64,000 nt of DNA from the NCBI GenBank assembly GCA_035946575.1, contig DASYZG010000025.1, positions 4,617 to 68,616 on the forward strand, given 5' to 3'. The translations under genes were made by a program, and so were the position numbers. Numbering within the stretch: the first letter of the stretch is position 1; each line of letters starts with the position of its first letter. The notes under the pieces were generated by a model. The model was not told where the DNA came from. It saw nothing but the letters and a program-made list of their open reading frames with translations, and ran no database searches. The DNA is from Terriglobia bacterium. Lineage in GTDB: Bacteria > Acidobacteriota > Terriglobia > UBA7540. Below are positions 56,476 through 61,077 of the stretch, piece after piece.

Positions 56476-58614
56476 TTGATCGGCGACGTACTCGGCCACT
56501 ATCGCATCGTCTCGAAGATCGGGCAGGGCGGGATGGGTGTGGTCTATCGCGCTCACGATGACGTCCTCGAGCGCGATGTGGCGCTCAAGCTGGTGCGCGA
56601 AGAGAAGCCGGTCGAGAAATCCGGCAAGCTGCTGCACGAAGCGCGGGCCGCCTCGGCCCTGAGTCATCCCAACGTCTGCACCATTCACGAAGTCGGCGAA
56701 TTCGCGGGCGAGCTTTACATGGTGATGGAGCTCGTCGACGGCGTGACGCTGAAGACCCGCCTCGGAGAGCTGGGGCTGCCCATCGAATCCGTCCTGCATT
56801 ACGGAGTCCAGGTGGCCGCCGCCCTGGCGCACGCCCATAGTCGCGGCATCGTTCATCGCGACATGAAGAGCGCCAACGTGATCATCACGCCCGAGGGCCT
56901 GGTCAAGGTGCTCGATTTCGGGCTGGCGCGGCGGCCGCCCAAGCCGGTGGCCGGCGATGCCACGGCGAGCATCGCGCCTGGCGAAGGCGAAATCGCGGGC
57001 ACGCTCGCCTACATGGCGCCCGAAGTCCTGCGCGGCGAGCCGGCGGATCACCGCAGCGATCTGTGGGCCATGGGAGTGGTACTCTACGAAGCCGCCACCG
57101 GTCAGTTGCCGTTCCGGGGATCCACGAACCTCGAAGTCAGCTCCGCCATCCTGCGCGAGCAGCCGGAACCCTTGCCCGAGCGCCTGCCACCCGGGTTGCG
57201 GGCGATCATCCAACGGTGTCTCGCCAAGGAGCCTGCGCAGCGATATCAGCAGGCGGGCGAGGTGCAGGCCGCCCTCGAAGCCGTCGAATCTTCATCCAAA
57301 GTCATCATCACTCAGCCTGGCGAACAACGGGGACCTCTCACCACCACCCACCACGGCGTCCGGCACCTCCGGGTGCGGGACGGCGACGTTCTGCTGATGG
57401 TCGGGACCATCAAGGGGGCGTTCCTGCTGCGCGCTTCCGCAGACCGCCGGCGTTGGGATGTGGCCGGCCCCTATTTCCACGGCCAGTTCGTTTATGCGAT
57501 GACGTACGACGGGCGCGGAGACCGGCATCGCCTGTGGGCTTCGACGGCCGCCTTCTGGGGCACGTTTCTGCGATCGAGCGACGATTTCGGCAGGATCTGG
57601 ACGAATCCGCCGGAAGCGAACGTAAAATTTCCCTTTGAAACCGGCGCCGTTCTCAAGAACATCTGGCAGATTTATCCGGGCCCGGCCGATCAGCCGGACG
57701 TGATGTACTGCGGCGTGGAGCCGGCGGCGCTGTTCAAGTCAAGCGATGCGGGGGAGACATGGTCGCTGGTCCGCGGCCTCTTCGATCATCCGCATCGCCC
57801 GCGCTGGATGCCGGGCAACGGCGGCCTGACGCTGCACACGATCGCTCAGGATCCGCAAGACCGGCAACGTATGTACGTCGCCATTTCCGCCGGGGGGATG
57901 TACCGCACCGACGATGGCGGATGCACCTGGCAGGCGCGTAATCACGGCATCCGGGTGATCCACCAGCCCGACAAGTACCCCGAGTTCGGCCAATGCGTTC
58001 ACAAGTTCGCCATGCACCCGGCGCGGCCGGAACGCCTGTTCCTGCAGAACCATTTCGGCTTGTATCGCTCCGATGACAACGCGGACAACTGGAAGGACAT
58101 CGCCAACGGCGTGCCGTCGGACTTCGGGTTTCCCATCGTGGTTCACCCTCACAACCCTGACTGCGTCTATATTCTGCCGGTCGAATCAGACATGTTTCGC
58201 TGCACTCCCGAGGGCCGTCTGCGCGTCTATCGCAGCCGCAACGCGGGAGCGTCATGGGAGCCGCTGGCGCGGGGCCTCCCGCAGAAGGGCGCGTACGAGA
58301 CCGTCCTCCGCGACAACATGGCGGCCGACACGCTCGATCCGCATGGTCTCTATTTCGGGACGCGCAGCGGCCAGGTCTTCGCCTCCTCAGACGAAGGGAA
58401 AACCTGGAAGAAGATCCTGGAAGGACTGCCTGCGATCGTGTGCTTGAAGAGCGCCGTGGTCGGTGAGCCGCGGCGGACCCGCAGAGTTCAGGGGCCAGGG
58501 ATCAGGGGTCGGGGGCCAGGGGTCAGAAACCAGAAGTCAGGAACCAGAAGTCAGAAGCCAGAAGTCAGAAGTAAGAAGACGCCGAGGGCCAGACCACGCG
58601 CAGCAAGTCGCTGA
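56476..58614 (+). CDS. Hanks-type Ser/Thr protein kinase fused, with no TM segment, to an Asp-box (BNR) beta-propeller domain
   Basis: TTG start after GAGGAG. Kinase motifs 'GQGGMGVVY', 'VALK', 'HRDMKSANV', 'DFGLA', 'YMAPE'. The C-terminal ~370 aa carries six SxDxGxxW boxes. The last ~45 aa are read-through into a 7-nt periodic array. Confidence 0.85.
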   Translation: MIGDVLGHYRIVSKIGQGGMGVVYRAHDDVLERDVALKLVREEKPVEKSGKLLHEARAASALSHPNVCTIHEVGEFAGELYMVMELVDGVTLKTRLGELGLPIESVLHYGVQVAAALAHAHSRGIVHRDMKSANVIITPEGLVKVLDFGLARRPPKPVAGDATASIAPGEGEIAGTLAYMAPEVLRGEPADHRSDLWAMGVVLYEAATGQLPFRGSTNLEVSSAILREQPEPLPERLPPGLRAIIQRCLAKEPAQRYQQAGEVQAALEAVESSSKVIITQPGEQRGPLTTTHHGVRHLRVRDGDVLLMVGTIKGAFLLRASADRRRWDVAGPYFHGQFVYAMTYDGRGDRHRLWASTAAFWGTFLRSSDDFGRIWTNPPEANVKFPFETGAVLKNIWQIYPGPADQPDVMYCGVEPAALFKSSDAGETWSLVRGLFDHPHRPRWMPGNGGLTLHTIAQDPQDRQRMYVAISAGGMYRTDDGGCTWQARNHGIRVIHQPDKYPEFGQCVHKFAMHPARPERLFLQNHFGLYRSDDNADNWKDIANGVPSDFGFPIVVHPHNPDCVYILPVESDMFRCTPEGRLRVYRSRNAGASWEPLARGLPQKGAYETVLRDNMAADTLDPHGLYFGTRSGQVFASSDEGKTWKKILEGLPAIVCLKSAVVGEPRRTRRVQGPGIRGRGPGVRNQKSGTRSQKPEVRSKKTPRARPRAASR
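58488..58578. repeat. 13 consecutive heptanucleotide units (purine-rich strand)
   Basis: 'tcagggg|ccaggga|tcagggg|tcggggg|ccagggg|tcagaaa|ccagaag|tcaggaa|ccagaag|tcagaag|ccagaag|tcagaag|taagaag'. Purine-rich heptads continue loosely to ~58680. A pyrimidine-rich partner 'cttcgac|tttggac|tttcgac|tttcaac|tctcgac' lies at 58704-58740. Confidence 0.85.
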
Positions 58615-58746
58615 GAGCAGAATGGACGTGGAGGTGTAGAAGCGAAAGGACGGAAGGCGGAAGTCGGAGGCGTCGGCGGTCAGGTAAACCCTTCGAAGGC
58701 ATGCTTCGACTTTGGACTTTCGACTTTCAACTCTCGACTTAAACCG

Positions 58747-59241
58747 ATGCCCCTCACCTTCAACATCCCGGGACCCTTGCGCGGCTTCGCTGCGGGCCGC
58801 CGGCAGGTGGAAATTGGAACGTCGGCCGCGACTTTGTCGGAGGCCCTCGAAGCCCTATGGATCGTCTGTCCGGGTCTGCGCGACCGGGTGATGACCGAAC
58901 AAGGGCAGGTCCGGGAGCACGTGAACATCTTCGTGGGCAAGGAAGATGTCCGCTACATGGACGGACTCAAAACCAGGGTCCCGGCGGAAGCCGAGATCTC
59001 GATTCTGGCCGCGGTAAGTGGCGGCTGTGGCCCGGGCGTCGCGCCCGCGACGCGCCCGGGACAAGCGCGCATCGGAGGTGAGAATGCAAAAGATCAATCC
59101 ATTCCTGTGGTTCGACAATCGGGCCGAGGAGGCCGCGAACTTCTACACATCGATCTTCAAGAACTCGCAAATTCGAACCGTGGCCCGTTATCCCGAAGGA
59201 TCGCCGGGGCCGGCAGGAACGGTGATGACCGTCACCTTTGA
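58747..59241 (+). CDS. MoaD/ThiS-family ubiquitin-like beta-grasp protein (aa 1-93 end in GG at 59020-59025), with the ORF reading through for 71 more codons
   Basis: '...LSEALEALWIVCPGLRDRVMTEQGQVREHVNIFVGKEDVRYMDGLKTRVPAEAEISILAAVSGG' matches the MoaD/SAMP-like pattern. The next codon is TGT (Cys), not a stop. The extension overlaps the VOC gene out of frame. No obvious SD. Confidence 0.7.
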   Translation: MPLTFNIPGPLRGFAAGRRQVEIGTSAATLSEALEALWIVCPGLRDRVMTEQGQVREHVNIFVGKEDVRYMDGLKTRVPAEAEISILAAVSGGCGPGVAPATRPGQARIGGENAKDQSIPVVRQSGRGGRELLHIDLQELANSNRGPLSRRIAGAGRNGDDRHL

Positions 59242-59557
59242 GCTCGACGGGCAGACGTTCATCGCCTTGAACGGCGGCCCGGTCTTTAAGTTCACCGAGG
59301 CGATATCCTTCTTTGTCAATTGTGAGACTCAGGAGGAAGTGGACCAGTTGTGGAGCAGGCTGTCGGACGGCGGAGAAGAGAGCCGGTGCGGGTGGCTGAA
59401 GGACCGATTCGGCGTCTCCTGGCAGATCATTCCCAAAGCGCTCGGCGAGATGCTTCAGGACAAGGACGCCGCACGAGCGAAACGAGTGGTGCAGGCGATG
59501 CTCCAGATGAAGAAGATTGACGTCAACATCTTGAGGCAGGCGTACGAGCAGCAGTAG
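59084..59557 (+). CDS. VOC/glyoxalase-superfamily protein, PhnB-like (3-demethylubiquinone-9 3-methyltransferase-domain type)
   Basis: ATG preceded by GGAGGTG. 'INPFLWFDNRAEEAANFYTSIF...TVTFELDGQTFIALNGGP.FKFTEAISF.V.C..QEEVD.LW..L...G....CGWLKDRFGVSWQI'. Confidence 0.85.
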   Translation: MQKINPFLWFDNRAEEAANFYTSIFKNSQIRTVARYPEGSPGPAGTVMTVTFELDGQTFIALNGGPVFKFTEAISFFVNCETQEEVDQLWSRLSDGGEESRCGWLKDRFGVSWQIIPKALGEMLQDKDAARAKRVVQAMLQMKKIDVNILRQAYEQQ

Positions 59558-59611
59558 TACAAGCCGGAGCAAACTGGCAGGACGGACGCACAAACTCAAA
59601 GGGAGGATGGG

Positions 59612-60784
59612 ATGAGCAAAGTACGAGTACTGGCGGGAACGCGAAAAGGCGCTTTCATTCTCGAATCCGACGGCAAGCGCGAGAAGTGGGAAGTCAGTGG
59701 TCCGCATTTCACAGGGTGGGAAATCTATCACATGAAGGGATCGCCCGCAGACCCCAACCGGATTTATGTCTCGCAGACGAGCGGCTGGTTCGGGCAGATC
59801 ATCCAACGCTCGAACGACGGCGGCAAGACATGGGAAGCGCCCGGAGGCGGCGTGCAGATGTCGCCCCAGGGCTGGCCCATGGGCGAGAGCAACCGTTTCG
59901 TCTACGATACGACGGCGGAGACCGGCAAACCTCTGACCACGCACCAGCATTATGACGGCACGCAGCGTCCCTGGGAATTCAAGCGCGTGTGGCATCTCGA
60001 GCCGTCGCTCACCGATCCTGATACCGTCTACGCCGGAGTCGAAGACGCGGCCATTTTCAAGACCACCGACGGCGGACACAGTTGGCACGAGATGTCCGGG
60101 CTGCGCGGCCATGGCACCGGGCCCAAGTGGCAGCCGGGGGCGGGCGGCATGTGCCTGCACACCATCATCCTGAACCCGAACGGCCAGATCGTGGTGGCCA
60201 TCTCGGCGGCAGGCGCCTTCCGGAGTGATGACGACGGCAAAACGTGGAAGCCAATCAATCGCGGACTAAGGTCCCAGTACATCCCGGATCCGAACGCGGA
60301 GACCGGGCACTGCGTTCACCACATCGCCCGGAACGCCTCGCGCCCCAACGTGCTCTTCATGCAAAAGCACTGGGACGTGATGCGCAGCGACGACGCCGGC
60401 GACAACTGGCGCGAGGTCAGCGGCAATCTGCCCACCGATTTCGGCTTCGCCATCGACGTGCACGCGCACGAGCCGGAGACCATCTACGTGGTGCCCATCA
60501 AGAGCGACTCGGAGCACTTCGTTCACGAAGGCAAGCTGCGCGTCTACCGCAGCCGCACGGGCGGTAACGAGTGGGAGGCGCTCACCAACGGCCTGCCGCA
60601 GAGCAACTGCTACCTTAACGTGCTGCGCGACGCCATGGCGGTCGATTCGCTCGACAAATGCGGAATCTATTTCGGCACTAGCGGCGGGCAGGTGTACGCA
60701 TCGGCCGACGCCGGGGATACCTGGGCGCCGATCGTGCGCGATTTGCCGCCGGTACTCTCGGTCGAGGTGCAAACGCTGTCATGA
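59612..60784 (+). CDS. stand-alone signal-less Asp-box (BNR) beta-propeller protein, paralogue of the kinase C-terminal domain
   Basis: AGGGAGGA SD. Six Asp-boxes ([51 protein letters not shown]). Roughly half the residues are identical, by eye, to kinase residues ~300-665. No signal peptide or TM. Confidence 0.85.
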
Positions 60785-61077
60785 TCCGCGTCGAGCTGCC
60801 TTATCATCTCCGCAAGCTGGCTCACCTCGACGGCGAAGTGCAACTCGAAGTCGCCGGCGAGGTAACGCAGCGATCAGTGCTTGATGCCCTCGAGGCGCGG
60901 TATCCCGTGCTGCGCGGAACCATCCGCGACCACGACAGCGGGAAGCGTCGCGCTTTTCTGCGATTCTTCGCCTGCCAGCAGGACCTTTCGCACGACTCGC
61001 CGGACGCGCTGCTGCCCGAGGCGGTGGCCTCCGGCGCCGAGCCCTTCATGGTGATCGGAGCGATAGCCGGCGGTTAA
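60781..61077 (+). CDS. MoaD/ThiS-family ubiquitin-like protein ending in GG-stop
   Basis: 98 aa. '[14 protein letters not shown]...[28 protein letters not shown]...[12 protein letters not shown]...[12 protein letters not shown]'. The ATG overlaps the propeller stop (ATGA at 60781-60784). Confidence 0.85.

What the first reader, a model, noticed from the sequence alone, without database searches (positions are those of the whole stretch)
58747..59241. First Ubl lacks a stop after the diglycine: GG is followed by Cys and a 71-codon extension overlapping the VOC gene
The codons read AGT GGC GGC TGT GGC CCG..., giving '...AAVSGG-CGPGVAPATRP...'. The frame stays open to 59241, running 158 nt out of frame into the VOC gene, which has a strong SD-ATG at 59084. 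Sulfur-carrier and modifier Ubls need a free GG carboxylate. As I recall, some, such as QbsE of thioquinolobactin biosynthesis, are made with extra residues after GG that a JAMM peptidase removes. This ORF is therefore one of three things. It may be a precursor requiring C-terminal processing, although no peptidase is encoded here. It may be a decaying copy, which fits its missing SD and its separation from the propeller by a repeat insertion. Or it may reflect a sequencing error that removed a stop.
Basis: partly seen in the sequence, partly recalled or inferred. Interest (0 to 1): 0.6.

Follow-up and report, generated by a model that had tools for sequence, protein, structure and literature searches.

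The report
Ubiquitin-like gene that lost its stop
A small ubiquitin-like protein gene in a soil acidobacterium has truly lost the stop codon after its Gly-Gly end, yet selection has kept the gene intact, so it is most likely made with a throw-away tail that is clipped or tolerated.

Summary
ORF 58747-59241 encodes a 93-aa ThiS/MoaD (CysO/SAMP1-like) core ending SGG. A TGT (Cys) codon follows, then 70 more codons that run 158 nt out of frame into the VOC gene.

It is not a sequencing error. Contigs from two other soil studies carry the same TGT. A sister lineage (L025) shares TGT and the spacer.

GG-stop is the rule: all 8 related species genomes and 57 of 72 protein clusters have it, mostly as TGA. 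This copy is therefore a TGA-to-TGT stop loss.

It is not decaying. The two TGT lineages are sisters, and since the loss the core has evolved at dN/dS 0.07, like its neighbours. The tail is incidental: a 10-nt indel gives the two lineages different tails.

Stop loss recurs in this family (15 of 72 clusters tailed, plus five in-frame PPOX fusions), against 2 of 120 for the paralogous Ubl2 family. SGG stays invariant throughout.

No JAMM peptidase is in this 81%-complete MAG. All 25 relatives have one, beside a CysO-like Ubl that nearly always carries a tail.

Best reading: a functional tailed pro-form, probably clipped after GG. The main rival is a tail that is tolerated uncut. Interest is modest.

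The parts
58747..59025 (+). Ubl1 core: a 93-aa beta-grasp ThiS/MoaD (CysO/SAMP1-like) domain ending in the invariant S91-G92-G93
   Evidence: Pfam PF02597 scores 28.6 bits over residues 9-93. NCBIfam SAMP1 NF041918 scores 58.5 bits, just under its cut-off of 60. The family profile hits M. tuberculosis CysO 3dwg_C at 4e-19. There are 74 orthologous clusters. SGG is invariant in 43 aligned orthologues.
59026..59028 (+). TGT (Cys) codon at the position where orthologues have the stop codon (mostly TGA)
   Evidence: all eight propeller-linked orthologues in related species genomes stop directly after GG (seven TGA, one TAA). The alignment shows GGCGGCTGA in G004 against GGCGGCTGT in the window and L025. 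The codon is unchanged in contigs from independent studies.
59026..59241 (+). 71-codon read-through tail plus stop (TGA 59239-59241). It crosses the Ubl1-VOC spacer and the first 158 nt of the VOC gene, out of frame.
   Evidence: The tail is not conserved. The sister lineage L025 has 10 more spacer bases, so its 22-aa tail is in another frame and stops at TAATG of the VOC gene. A population variant, 59032 C>A, changes the tail.
59031..59060 (+). GC-rich imperfect palindrome in the spacer, now translated as part of the tail
   Evidence: Fold: MFE -34.1 kcal/mol, z = -0.75, so no better than shuffles. The sequence is unique in the genome and so is not a REP family member.
59084..59557 (+). VOC/glyoxalase-fold gene (PF06983) with its own SD at 59074-59080. 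Its 5' 158 nt are overlapped by the tail.
   Evidence: Pfam hit at 6.2e-51 from residue 2. The Ubl1-VOC order is conserved in G004, G003 and L025.
56476..58614 (+). Ser/Thr kinase fused to a BNR/Asp-box propeller: the conserved upstream partner of Ubl1
   Evidence: Pfam Pkinase plus Sortilin-Vps10/BNR. This gene lies directly upstream of every Ubl1 orthologue examined. Complex prediction of the propeller (57361-58470) with the Ubl1 core gave ipSAE 0.71 against a best control of 0.00.
59612..61077 (+). Second cassette, used as comparator: stand-alone propeller (59612-60784) plus Ubl2 (60781-61077), which ends AIAGG-stop
   Evidence: In the Ubl2 family, 118 of 120 listed clusters end in GG.

Best explanation
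Ubl1 is a functional CysO/SAMP1-type ubiquitin-like protein. It works with the Ser/Thr-kinase-propeller protein encoded just upstream.

In the common ancestor of this organism and a sister lineage, the stop after the C-terminal Gly-Gly was lost (TGA to TGT, or replaced along with the spacer). Ribosomes now read on through the spacer. In this genome a 10-nt spacer difference also removed the next in-frame stop, so they continue 158 nt into the VOC gene. The product is a 164-aa pro-form with a 71-aa tail that has no conserved sequence.

The core is still needed and still under selection. The most likely way it keeps working is cleavage directly after the invariant Ser-Gly-Gly. The probable enzyme is the lineage's Prok-JAB (Mec+/QbsD-type) metallopeptidase, which would restore the free diglycine end.

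Shown: the stop loss is real, it is inherited, the core is under purifying selection, the tail is not conserved, tails and fusions recur in this family, and a JAB peptidase is present in all relatives.

Inferred: that the tail is removed, and by which enzyme.
For: Real, not an error: the TGT is unchanged in contigs of two other studies. It is shared, with a homologous spacer, by L025 from three further runs.

Derived state: all 8 related species genomes and 57 of 72 protein clusters end GG-stop, mostly TGA.

Shared by descent: in the flanking genes the window and L025 are closest. Propeller dS is 0.50, against 0.66 and 0.88 to G004. VOC dS is 0.62, against 1.07 and 1.08.

Still selected: the Ubl1 core has dN/dS 0.07 at dS 0.72 between the two TGT lineages. 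The propeller shows 0.07 and VOC 0.09 for the same pair.

Tail incidental: the 10-nt indel puts the two tails in different frames.

Blocked C-termini recur and persist. 15 of 72 clusters carry unrelated tails. The tail NTTGFFSPH(S/R)T is kept between P0007 and P0011, which are 86% identical overall (tail included). Five clusters are in-frame Ubl1-PPOX fusions that follow the kinase-propeller gene wherever their context was read. SGG is invariant in all 43 aligned orthologues, including tailed and fused ones, as expected for a cleavage and activation site.

Peptidase available in the lineage: Prok-JAB is present in 25 of 25 relatives, 7 of 7 in the same genus. It always lies beside a CysO-like Ubl, 33-38% identical to Ubl1, which carries a post-GG tail or fusion in 19 of 20 species examined.

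Precedents from the literature: QbsE GG-CF with QbsD, and CxnE GG plus a decapeptide with CxnF (PMC5925218); the D. radiodurans MoaD-MoaE fusion cut by DRJAMM, and HvJAMM1 cutting linear SAMP fusions (PMC8832034); and the prediction by Iyer et al. 2006 (PMC1779556).
Against: No JAB/JAMM peptidase was found in this assembly, by two Pfam models or by the G004 JAB protein. The MAG is only 80.7% complete, and the JAB-linked Ubl is missing from it too.

No peptidase sits in any Ubl1 neighbourhood read, unlike the QbsE or CxnE clusters.

If a promiscuous JAB clipped any Ubl tail, the paralogous Ubl2 family should tolerate tails as well. Only 2 of 120 Ubl2 clusters have them.

The predicted Ubl1-propeller interface lists residues 88-89 but not the GG. 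The tail might therefore simply protrude and be harmless.

No expression or protein data exist.
Confidence: 0.5

Rival explanations
1. The tail is tolerated without cleavage. Ubl1 acts mainly as a non-covalent beta-grasp subunit of the kinase-propeller protein. Its C-terminus points away from the interface, so a tail or a fused domain does little harm and stop loss is nearly neutral.
For: The complex model scores ipSAE 0.71 against a best control of 0.00. The three runs agree in at least 91% of contacts, and the partner's pLDDT is at least 86. That mark was reached by 58 of 80 solved complexes and 2 of 110 mismatched pairs. The predicted Ubl1 interface (residues 10-11, 14, 42-43, 46-48, 50-52, 56, 58-59, 88-89) coincides with the invariant residues L11, P42, R47, T50, E51, R56 and H58 and does not list G92 or G93. 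Tails of arbitrary sequence, and a whole PPOX domain, are accepted. The Ubl2 family, in the same genomes with the same peptidase repertoire, almost never has tails, so the tolerance is specific to Ubl1. No peptidase is present in any Ubl1 neighbourhood read.
Against: S91-G92-G93 is invariant in all 43 orthologues, tailed and fused ones included. That is hard to explain if the diglycine end has no chemistry to do. The closest solved relatives are sulfur carriers that use the GG carboxylate: CysO at 4e-19 and SAMP1. Residues not named in the model's interface are uncertain, not shown to be free. 79% of clusters still keep GG-stop.
Confidence: 0.3
2. Inactivated gene on its way to decay. The stop loss blocks the diglycine end, and the copy is now functionless or only weakly expressed.
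For: GG-stop is the rule in orthologues. No SD precedes the ATG, and a 132-nt repeat-filled gap separates it from the propeller gene. The 71-aa tail overlaps the VOC gene. The gene appears to have been dropped by gene calling: no 100%-identical protein turned up in either length range, whereas the window's own Ubl2 is listed.
Against: dN/dS is 0.07 at dS 0.72 between the two lineages that share the stop loss, equal to the flanking genes. There are no frameshifts or internal stops. All 13 family-invariant residues are intact. The same gap, and where read the same lack of SD, occur in G004, L025 and L010, whose copies are likewise conserved.
Confidence: 0.1
3. Sequencing or assembly error removed a stop.
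For: The genome is a metagenome-assembled draft of 130 contigs. A single base, TGT against TGA, makes the difference.
Against: The possible source run covers the site at depth 11.4 with no variant. Contigs from two other studies (X2, X5) carry the same letters at 59026-59028. Three further runs encode the sister protein P0001 with GG-Cys.
Confidence: 0.02

Closest known systems
QbsE/QbsD (thioquinolobactin, Pseudomonas fluorescens) and CxnE/CxnF (chuangxinmycin)
   Same: These are MoaD/ThiS-type sulfur-carrier proteins made with residues after the GG: CF in QbsE, and the decapeptide SEAARAEESR in CxnE. The extra residues must be removed to expose the diglycine (PMC5925218). In QbsE, as here, the first residue after GG is Cys.
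   Different: In those clusters the JAMM peptidase is encoded next to the carrier and the tail is a fixed feature of the family. Here no peptidase is in the operon or in the assembly. The tail is a lineage-specific stop loss and is much longer (71 aa). It has no conserved sequence and overlaps the next gene. The Cys is one of only a few residues that a single change of TGA can give.
CysO / Mec+ / CysM of Mycobacterium tuberculosis (3dwg)
   Same: CysO is the closest solved sequence relative of the Ubl1 family, at E 4e-19 over the full length. The relatives of this organism carry a mec-cysO-like pair: Prok-JAB directly upstream of a CysO-like Ubl.
   Different: The solved M. tuberculosis CysO chain (93 aa) aligns with Ubl1 end to end, so it carries no tail; its partner is a cysteine synthase. 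Ubl1's conserved partner is a Ser/Thr kinase fused to a BNR propeller, not CysM. Mec+ is known for hydrolysing the CysO-cysteine adduct (my own knowledge), not for trimming a precursor.
MoaD-MoaE fusion of Deinococcus radiodurans cut by DRJAMM; HvJAMM1 with SAMP1-3
   Same: These are linear Ubl-GG-X fusions that a stand-alone JAMM/MPN+ peptidase, encoded elsewhere in the genome, cleaves to generate the C-terminal Gly (PMC8832034). They are the best precedent for cleavage in trans and for the Ubl1-PPOX fusions found here.
   Different: Those are Moco-synthase subunits or archaeal modifiers. Cleavage has not been shown for any Acidobacterial protein.
Eukaryotic ubiquitin and UBL precursors
   Same: They are translated with C-terminal extensions or as fusions and matured by cleavage after GG.
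   Different: Eukaryotic precursors are the universal state of those genes. In the Ubl1 family, tails are a minority state (about a fifth of clusters) that arose many times.

Membership tests
ThiS/MoaD beta-grasp Ubl superfamily (PF02597) | Profile match above Pfam's gathering score | tested here: met
   28.6 bits against a cut-off of 22.5, over residues 9-93 and profile positions 5-76 of 76.
ThiS/MoaD beta-grasp Ubl superfamily (PF02597) | Diglycine at the end of the domain | tested here: met
   S91-G92-G93 is present and invariant in 43 orthologues.
ThiS/MoaD beta-grasp Ubl superfamily (PF02597) | Free GG carboxylate in the primary translation product | tested here: not met
   TGT follows GG, giving a 71-codon tail. 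Independent contigs confirm it.
SAMP1 equivalog (NCBIfam NF041918) | Score at or above the curated cut-off | tested here: not met
   58.5 bits against a cut-off of 60. The protein resembles SAMP1 but does not pass as a member.
Precursor-type sulfur carriers (QbsE/CxnE-like) | Residues encoded after the GG | tested here: met
Precursor-type sulfur carriers (QbsE/CxnE-like) | JAMM/MPN+ peptidase encoded in the same cluster | tested here: not met
   None is in the window. None is in the 80.7%-complete assembly, by PF14464, PF01398 or the G004 JAB protein. None is in the orthologous neighbourhoods read. One is present elsewhere in 25 of 25 relatives.
Precursor-type sulfur carriers (QbsE/CxnE-like) | The tail is a conserved feature of the family | tested here: not met
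   57 of 72 clusters end GG-stop. The tails are unrelated in sequence and length.
Precursor-type sulfur carriers (QbsE/CxnE-like) | Demonstrated cleavage after GG | not testable with these tools
   This needs MS of the expressed protein, with and without the peptidase.
Pseudogene | Relaxed selection (dN/dS near 1), frameshifts or internal stops | tested here: not met
   dN/dS is 0.07 between the two stop-less lineages. The core frame is intact.

The most novel reading that the evidence does not exclude
The kinase-propeller-linked Ubl1 family may be a bacterial ubiquitin-like module in which a blocked C-terminus is a regular, usable state. Tails, and even whole enzymes such as PPOX, would hang on the invariant SGG as pro-forms. 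Cleavage by a JAB peptidase acting in trans would release an active diglycine Ubl that binds, and perhaps regulates or is regulated by, a Ser/Thr kinase-BNR propeller. On this reading the stop-less copy here is one snapshot of a family evolving towards ubiquitin-style precursor processing coupled to kinase signalling.
Probability: 0.12. Interest if true: 0.7.

Novelty: new member of a known kind. Interest (0 to 1): 0.36.

Why it matters
Taken alone this is a small event: one stop codon lost in one soil lineage. It has three uses.

- It corrects annotation. A conserved, selected gene is probably dropped by gene callers because its read-through frame overlaps the next gene by 158 nt.
- It works as a natural experiment. 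This particular Ubl family survives a blocked diglycine end again and again (tails in about a fifth of clusters, plus stable PPOX fusions). Its paralogue in the same genomes does not. That points either to Ubl-specific processing by a peptidase acting in trans, or to a role that does not need the free carboxylate.
- It supplies ready substrates. The 164-aa form and the PPOX fusions can be used to test whether the Acidobacterial Prok-JAB peptidases mature Ubl precursors, which would link an uncharacterised kinase-propeller-Ubl module to ubiquitin-like chemistry.

Tried and rejected
- Sequencing error. Rejected by independent contigs.
- REP or mobile-element insertion destroying the stop. The spacer palindrome 59031-59060 is unique in the genome. 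Its fold is no better than shuffles (z = -0.75; the sister's spacer gives z = -2.25). The spacer does differ wholesale from that of G004, so replacement of the spacer rather than a point mutation remains possible.
- Long heptad-array hairpin bringing the kinase-propeller stop next to the Ubl1 start. The fold of 58480-58765 is no better than shuffles (z = +0.75).
- Programmed frameshift producing a Ubl-VOC fusion. The VOC frame is open from 59018. But the frame relation differs in the sister lineage, which has 10 extra nt and a tail that stops at TAATG. Nothing is conserved, so this is rejected as chance.
- Selenocysteine (orthologous TGA against Cys here). Considered and rejected. The sequence after the TGA is not conserved between orthologues, and the tails change frame.
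- RNA evidence. No RNA holder is listed among the public runs. This says nothing about expression.
- Literature search for a described BNR-propeller/MoaD association. Nothing was found, and Iyer et al. 2006 do not mention it.
- The E1 locus of this genome (L030). It shows a stand-alone 342-aa ThiF/MoeB-type protein with no JAB beside it.
- The complex prediction passed, but it cannot tell whether the C-terminus must be free.

Full report
**1. What is in the sequence**

ORF 58747-59241 on the + strand encodes 164 aa.
- Residues 1-93 are a ThiS/MoaD beta-grasp domain. Pfam PF02597 scores 28.6 bits against a cut-off of 22.5, matching residues 9-93 to the end of the profile.
- NCBIfam SAMP1 scores 58.5 bits, just under its cut-off of 60.
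- A profile of the family hits M. tuberculosis CysO (3dwg_C) at 4e-19 over the full length, then SAMP1 structures.
- The domain ends ...ISILAAVSGG (GGC GGC at 59020-59025). The next codon is TGT. The frame then stays open for 70 more codons, to TGA at 59239-59241.
- The VOC gene (PF06983, 6.2e-51) starts at ATG 59084 behind GGAGGTG. The overlap is therefore 158 nt, out of frame.

The length of the open tail is not remarkable in itself: in this GC-rich DNA, one search lists many spurious overlapping ORFs of 100-400 aa. The event that matters is the missing stop.

**2. It is not an error**

Public runs were laid on 58400-59600.
- The possible source run (X1) covers the site at depth 11.4 with no differences.
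- A 426-nt contig from another study (X2, record 12, 58906-59331) spans the site. Its differences are listed at 58947 and 59178 only.
- A 392-nt contig from a third study (X5, record 22, 58908-59299) also spans it. Its differences are at 58947, 59032 and 59178.
- Neither contig differs at 59026-59028.
- Protein P0001, 90% identical in the Ubl1 core, was assembled in three further runs and reads ...AAVSGG-CGAGVTPATCAPG....

**3. GG-stop is the rule, and this is a derived stop loss**
- The eight orthologues in related species genomes all lie behind the kinase-propeller gene and all stop directly after GG. Seven use TGA and one uses TAA.
- Among 74 protein clusters, 57 end in SGG, 15 carry something after SGG, and 2 are truncated.
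- The DNA alignment shows GGCGGCTGA in G004 (same genus) against GGCGGCTGT in the window and in L025 (the P0001 contig).
- The window and L025 also share a homologous GC-rich spacer that G004 lacks.
- In the flanking genes the window and L025 are each other's closest relatives. Propeller dS is 0.50, against 0.66 and 0.88 to G004. VOC dS is 0.62, against 1.07 and 1.08.
- TGT is therefore a shared, derived state.

**4. It is not decaying**
- Between the two stop-less lineages, the 93-codon core has dS 0.72, dN 0.05 and dN/dS 0.07. The propeller gives 0.07 and VOC 0.09 for the same pair.
- All family-invariant residues are intact: L11, P42, R47, T50, E51, R56, H58, F62, R69, G73, S91, G92 and G93.
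In L008, L012 and others the kinase-propeller stop overlaps the Ubl1 start (GTAATG). That is classical translational coupling and needs no SD.
- In the window, L025, G004 and L010, heptad repeats have spread the two genes 104-161 nt apart. Those copies are equally conserved.

**5. The tail is incidental**
- L025 has 10 more bases in the spacer. After nine shared residues its tail is in a different frame, is 22 aa long, and stops at TAATG of the VOC gene.
- In the window that stop is out of frame, so translation runs on into the VOC gene.
- A population variant (59032 C>A, in X5) alters the tail.
- The spacer palindrome (59031-59060) is unique in the genome and folds no better than shuffled sequence.
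- A frameshift fusion to VOC, and a Sec/Cys reading of TGA against TGT, were considered. Both were dropped because nothing downstream is conserved.

**6. Blocked C-termini recur in this family, but not in its paralogue**
- The 15 tailed clusters have unrelated tails of 1 to 35 aa. I count roughly 13 independent events.
- One tail, NTTGFFSPH(S/R)T, is kept between P0007 and P0011, which are 86% identical overall, tail included. P0011 lies on 9 contigs, coupled to its kinase-propeller gene.
- A search for longer proteins found five clusters in which Ubl1 is fused in frame, after SGG, to a PPOX/PNPOx-like domain. Their cores are 73-93% identical to one another. P0076 lies on 16 contigs. In each context read, the fusion overlaps the end of a kinase-propeller gene.
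- SGG is invariant in all of these.
- In contrast, Ubl2 (60781-61077), the partner of the stand-alone propeller in the same cassette, ends in GG in 118 of 120 listed clusters.
- Fisher's exact test gives p of about 1e-5. Clusters are not independent, and the Ubl2 list spans less divergence.
- The tolerance is thus specific to Ubl1. It is not a gene-calling artefact or a general habit of these genomes.

**7. Is there a peptidase?**
- None is in the window. None was found in the assembly with Prok-JAB (PF14464), JAB (PF01398) or the JAB protein of G004.
- The MAG is only 80.7% complete.
- All 25 relatives searched have a Prok-JAB gene, including 7 of 7 in the same genus.
- In the 23 relatives where both were located, it lies directly upstream of a CysO-like Ubl that is 33-38% identical to Ubl1. 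That Ubl's C-terminal strand (SIVPSIAGG) resembles that of most Ubl1 orthologues (SIVPAISGG).
- That Ubl carries a post-GG tail in 18 of the 20 species I read, and in a 19th it is fused to an E1-like domain. About half of the tails end in a conserved ...RCIC(S/R/H) motif.
- Both the JAB gene and this Ubl are missing from the assembly. That looks like a missing contig rather than a gene loss, but it cannot be settled here.
- The literature supports the principle. QbsD trims CF from QbsE. CxnF is proposed to trim a decapeptide from CxnE (PMC5925218). DRJAMM cuts the MoaD-MoaE fusion, and HvJAMM1 cuts linear SAMP fusions, both acting in trans (PMC8832034). Iyer et al. predicted this role for JAB where ThiS/MoaD is fused to other proteins (PMC1779556).

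**8. The partner**
- Every Ubl1 orthologue examined follows a Ser/Thr kinase-BNR propeller fusion.
- The closest solved structure to the propeller is an uncharacterised structural-genomics entry, 3b7f, at 9e-125.
- A complex prediction of the propeller domain with the 93-aa core supports binding. ipSAE was 0.71 against a best control of 0.00. That mark was reached by 58 of 80 solved complexes and 2 of 110 mismatched pairs. The runs agree in at least 91% of contacts, and the partner's pLDDT is at least 86. My own alignments were used, so these counts hold only roughly.
- The Ubl1 side of the interface (residues 10-11, 14, 42-43, 46-48, 50-52, 56, 58-59, 88-89) coincides with the invariant residues of the family. 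G92 and G93 are not listed, which the tool warns is not evidence that they are free.
- I found no solved complex of this kind, so the pass is unlikely to come from memory. It remains a model, not a measurement.

**9. Verdict**

The finding is a real, inherited loss of the stop codon in a functional Ubl. The product is a tailed pro-form whose tail is evolutionary noise.

Two mechanisms can explain why it works:
- Cleavage after SGG by a JAB-type peptidase acting in trans. I favour this, at about 0.5, because SGG stays invariant even in tailed and fused forms and the lineage has such a peptidase serving a related tailed Ubl.
- Simple tolerance of the tail by a Ubl that acts as a non-covalent subunit, at about 0.3. 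This is favoured by the Ubl1-specific tolerance and by the predicted interface.

Decay (about 0.1) and error (about 0.02) are unlikely.

Compared with known systems, this is another member of the class of sulfur-carrier or modifier Ubls made with residues after GG. It differs in three ways: it has no cognate peptidase in the operon, its tail is not conserved, and its partner is unusual. Interest for this particular finding is modest. The family-level pattern and the kinase-propeller partnership are the more interesting leads.

Noticed in passing
L038-L057 (JAB-adjacent Ubl genes of G001-G034, e.g. G004:C601:737-997): A CysO-like Ubl sits directly downstream of the Prok-JAB gene in the relatives. 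It carries a post-GG tail of 1-27 aa in 18 of 20 species and is fused to an E1-like domain in a 19th. About half of the tails end in a conserved ...RCIC(S/R/H) motif followed by TAG. This looks like an obligatory tailed precursor, or a CxC sulfur or metal motif. I found no description of it.
   Followed up: partly
P0075-P0079; L059:1639-2331, L060:3004-3696: A subclade of Ubl1 orthologues is fused in frame, after the invariant SGG and a linker that is (K/R)TAExPEP in three of the five, to a PPOX/PNPOx-like (PF01243) domain. In each context read, the fused gene still overlaps the end of a kinase-propeller gene by 4 nt.
   Followed up: partly
L002:733-1011 (G000:C26): Another MoaD-like gene of this genome lies next to the C-terminal part of an aldehyde-oxidase/xanthine-dehydrogenase-type molybdoenzyme. 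It ends ...AAISGG-AQAAR, so it also has a 5-aa tail after GG.
   Followed up: no
window 58470-58614 and orthologous loci L006-L013, L025, L028: All kinase-propeller ORFs read cleanly end in a 30-55 aa Arg/Lys-rich low-complexity tail after ...GLPAIVC(L/V)K(S/C)AV(V/I)GEP. In the window, and apparently in several relatives, it is encoded by the GTCAGAA-type heptad arrays. The 'intergenic' heptad repeats are therefore partly coding (three heptads make seven codons).
   Followed up: partly
window 58747-59241: No protein identical to this ORF or to its 93-aa core appeared in the protein collection in either length range. The window's own Ubl2 is listed there. The 158-nt same-strand overlap with the VOC gene probably makes gene callers drop Ubl1, so it may be missing from the MAG's annotation.
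   Followed up: partly
window 59084-59557; L028:4561-5106; L006, L007, L025: A PF06983 VOC gene accompanies the kinase-propeller/Ubl cassettes in several genomes but at different positions. It lies between the two cassettes here, in G004, in G003 and in L025, and upstream of the kinase gene in L028. In other genomes the slot after Ubl1 holds an ankyrin-repeat gene or, in fused form, PPOX. The slot after Ubl1 thus takes variable small-enzyme cargo.
   Followed up: no
window 57361-58470 and 59612-60784: The cytoplasmic BNR propeller family is large: 1210 representatives at E 1e-30 or better and 14022 at 1e-10 or better. It has a solved but uncharacterised member, 3b7f ('glycosyl hydrolase, BNR repeat'), at E 9e-125.
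   Followed up: no
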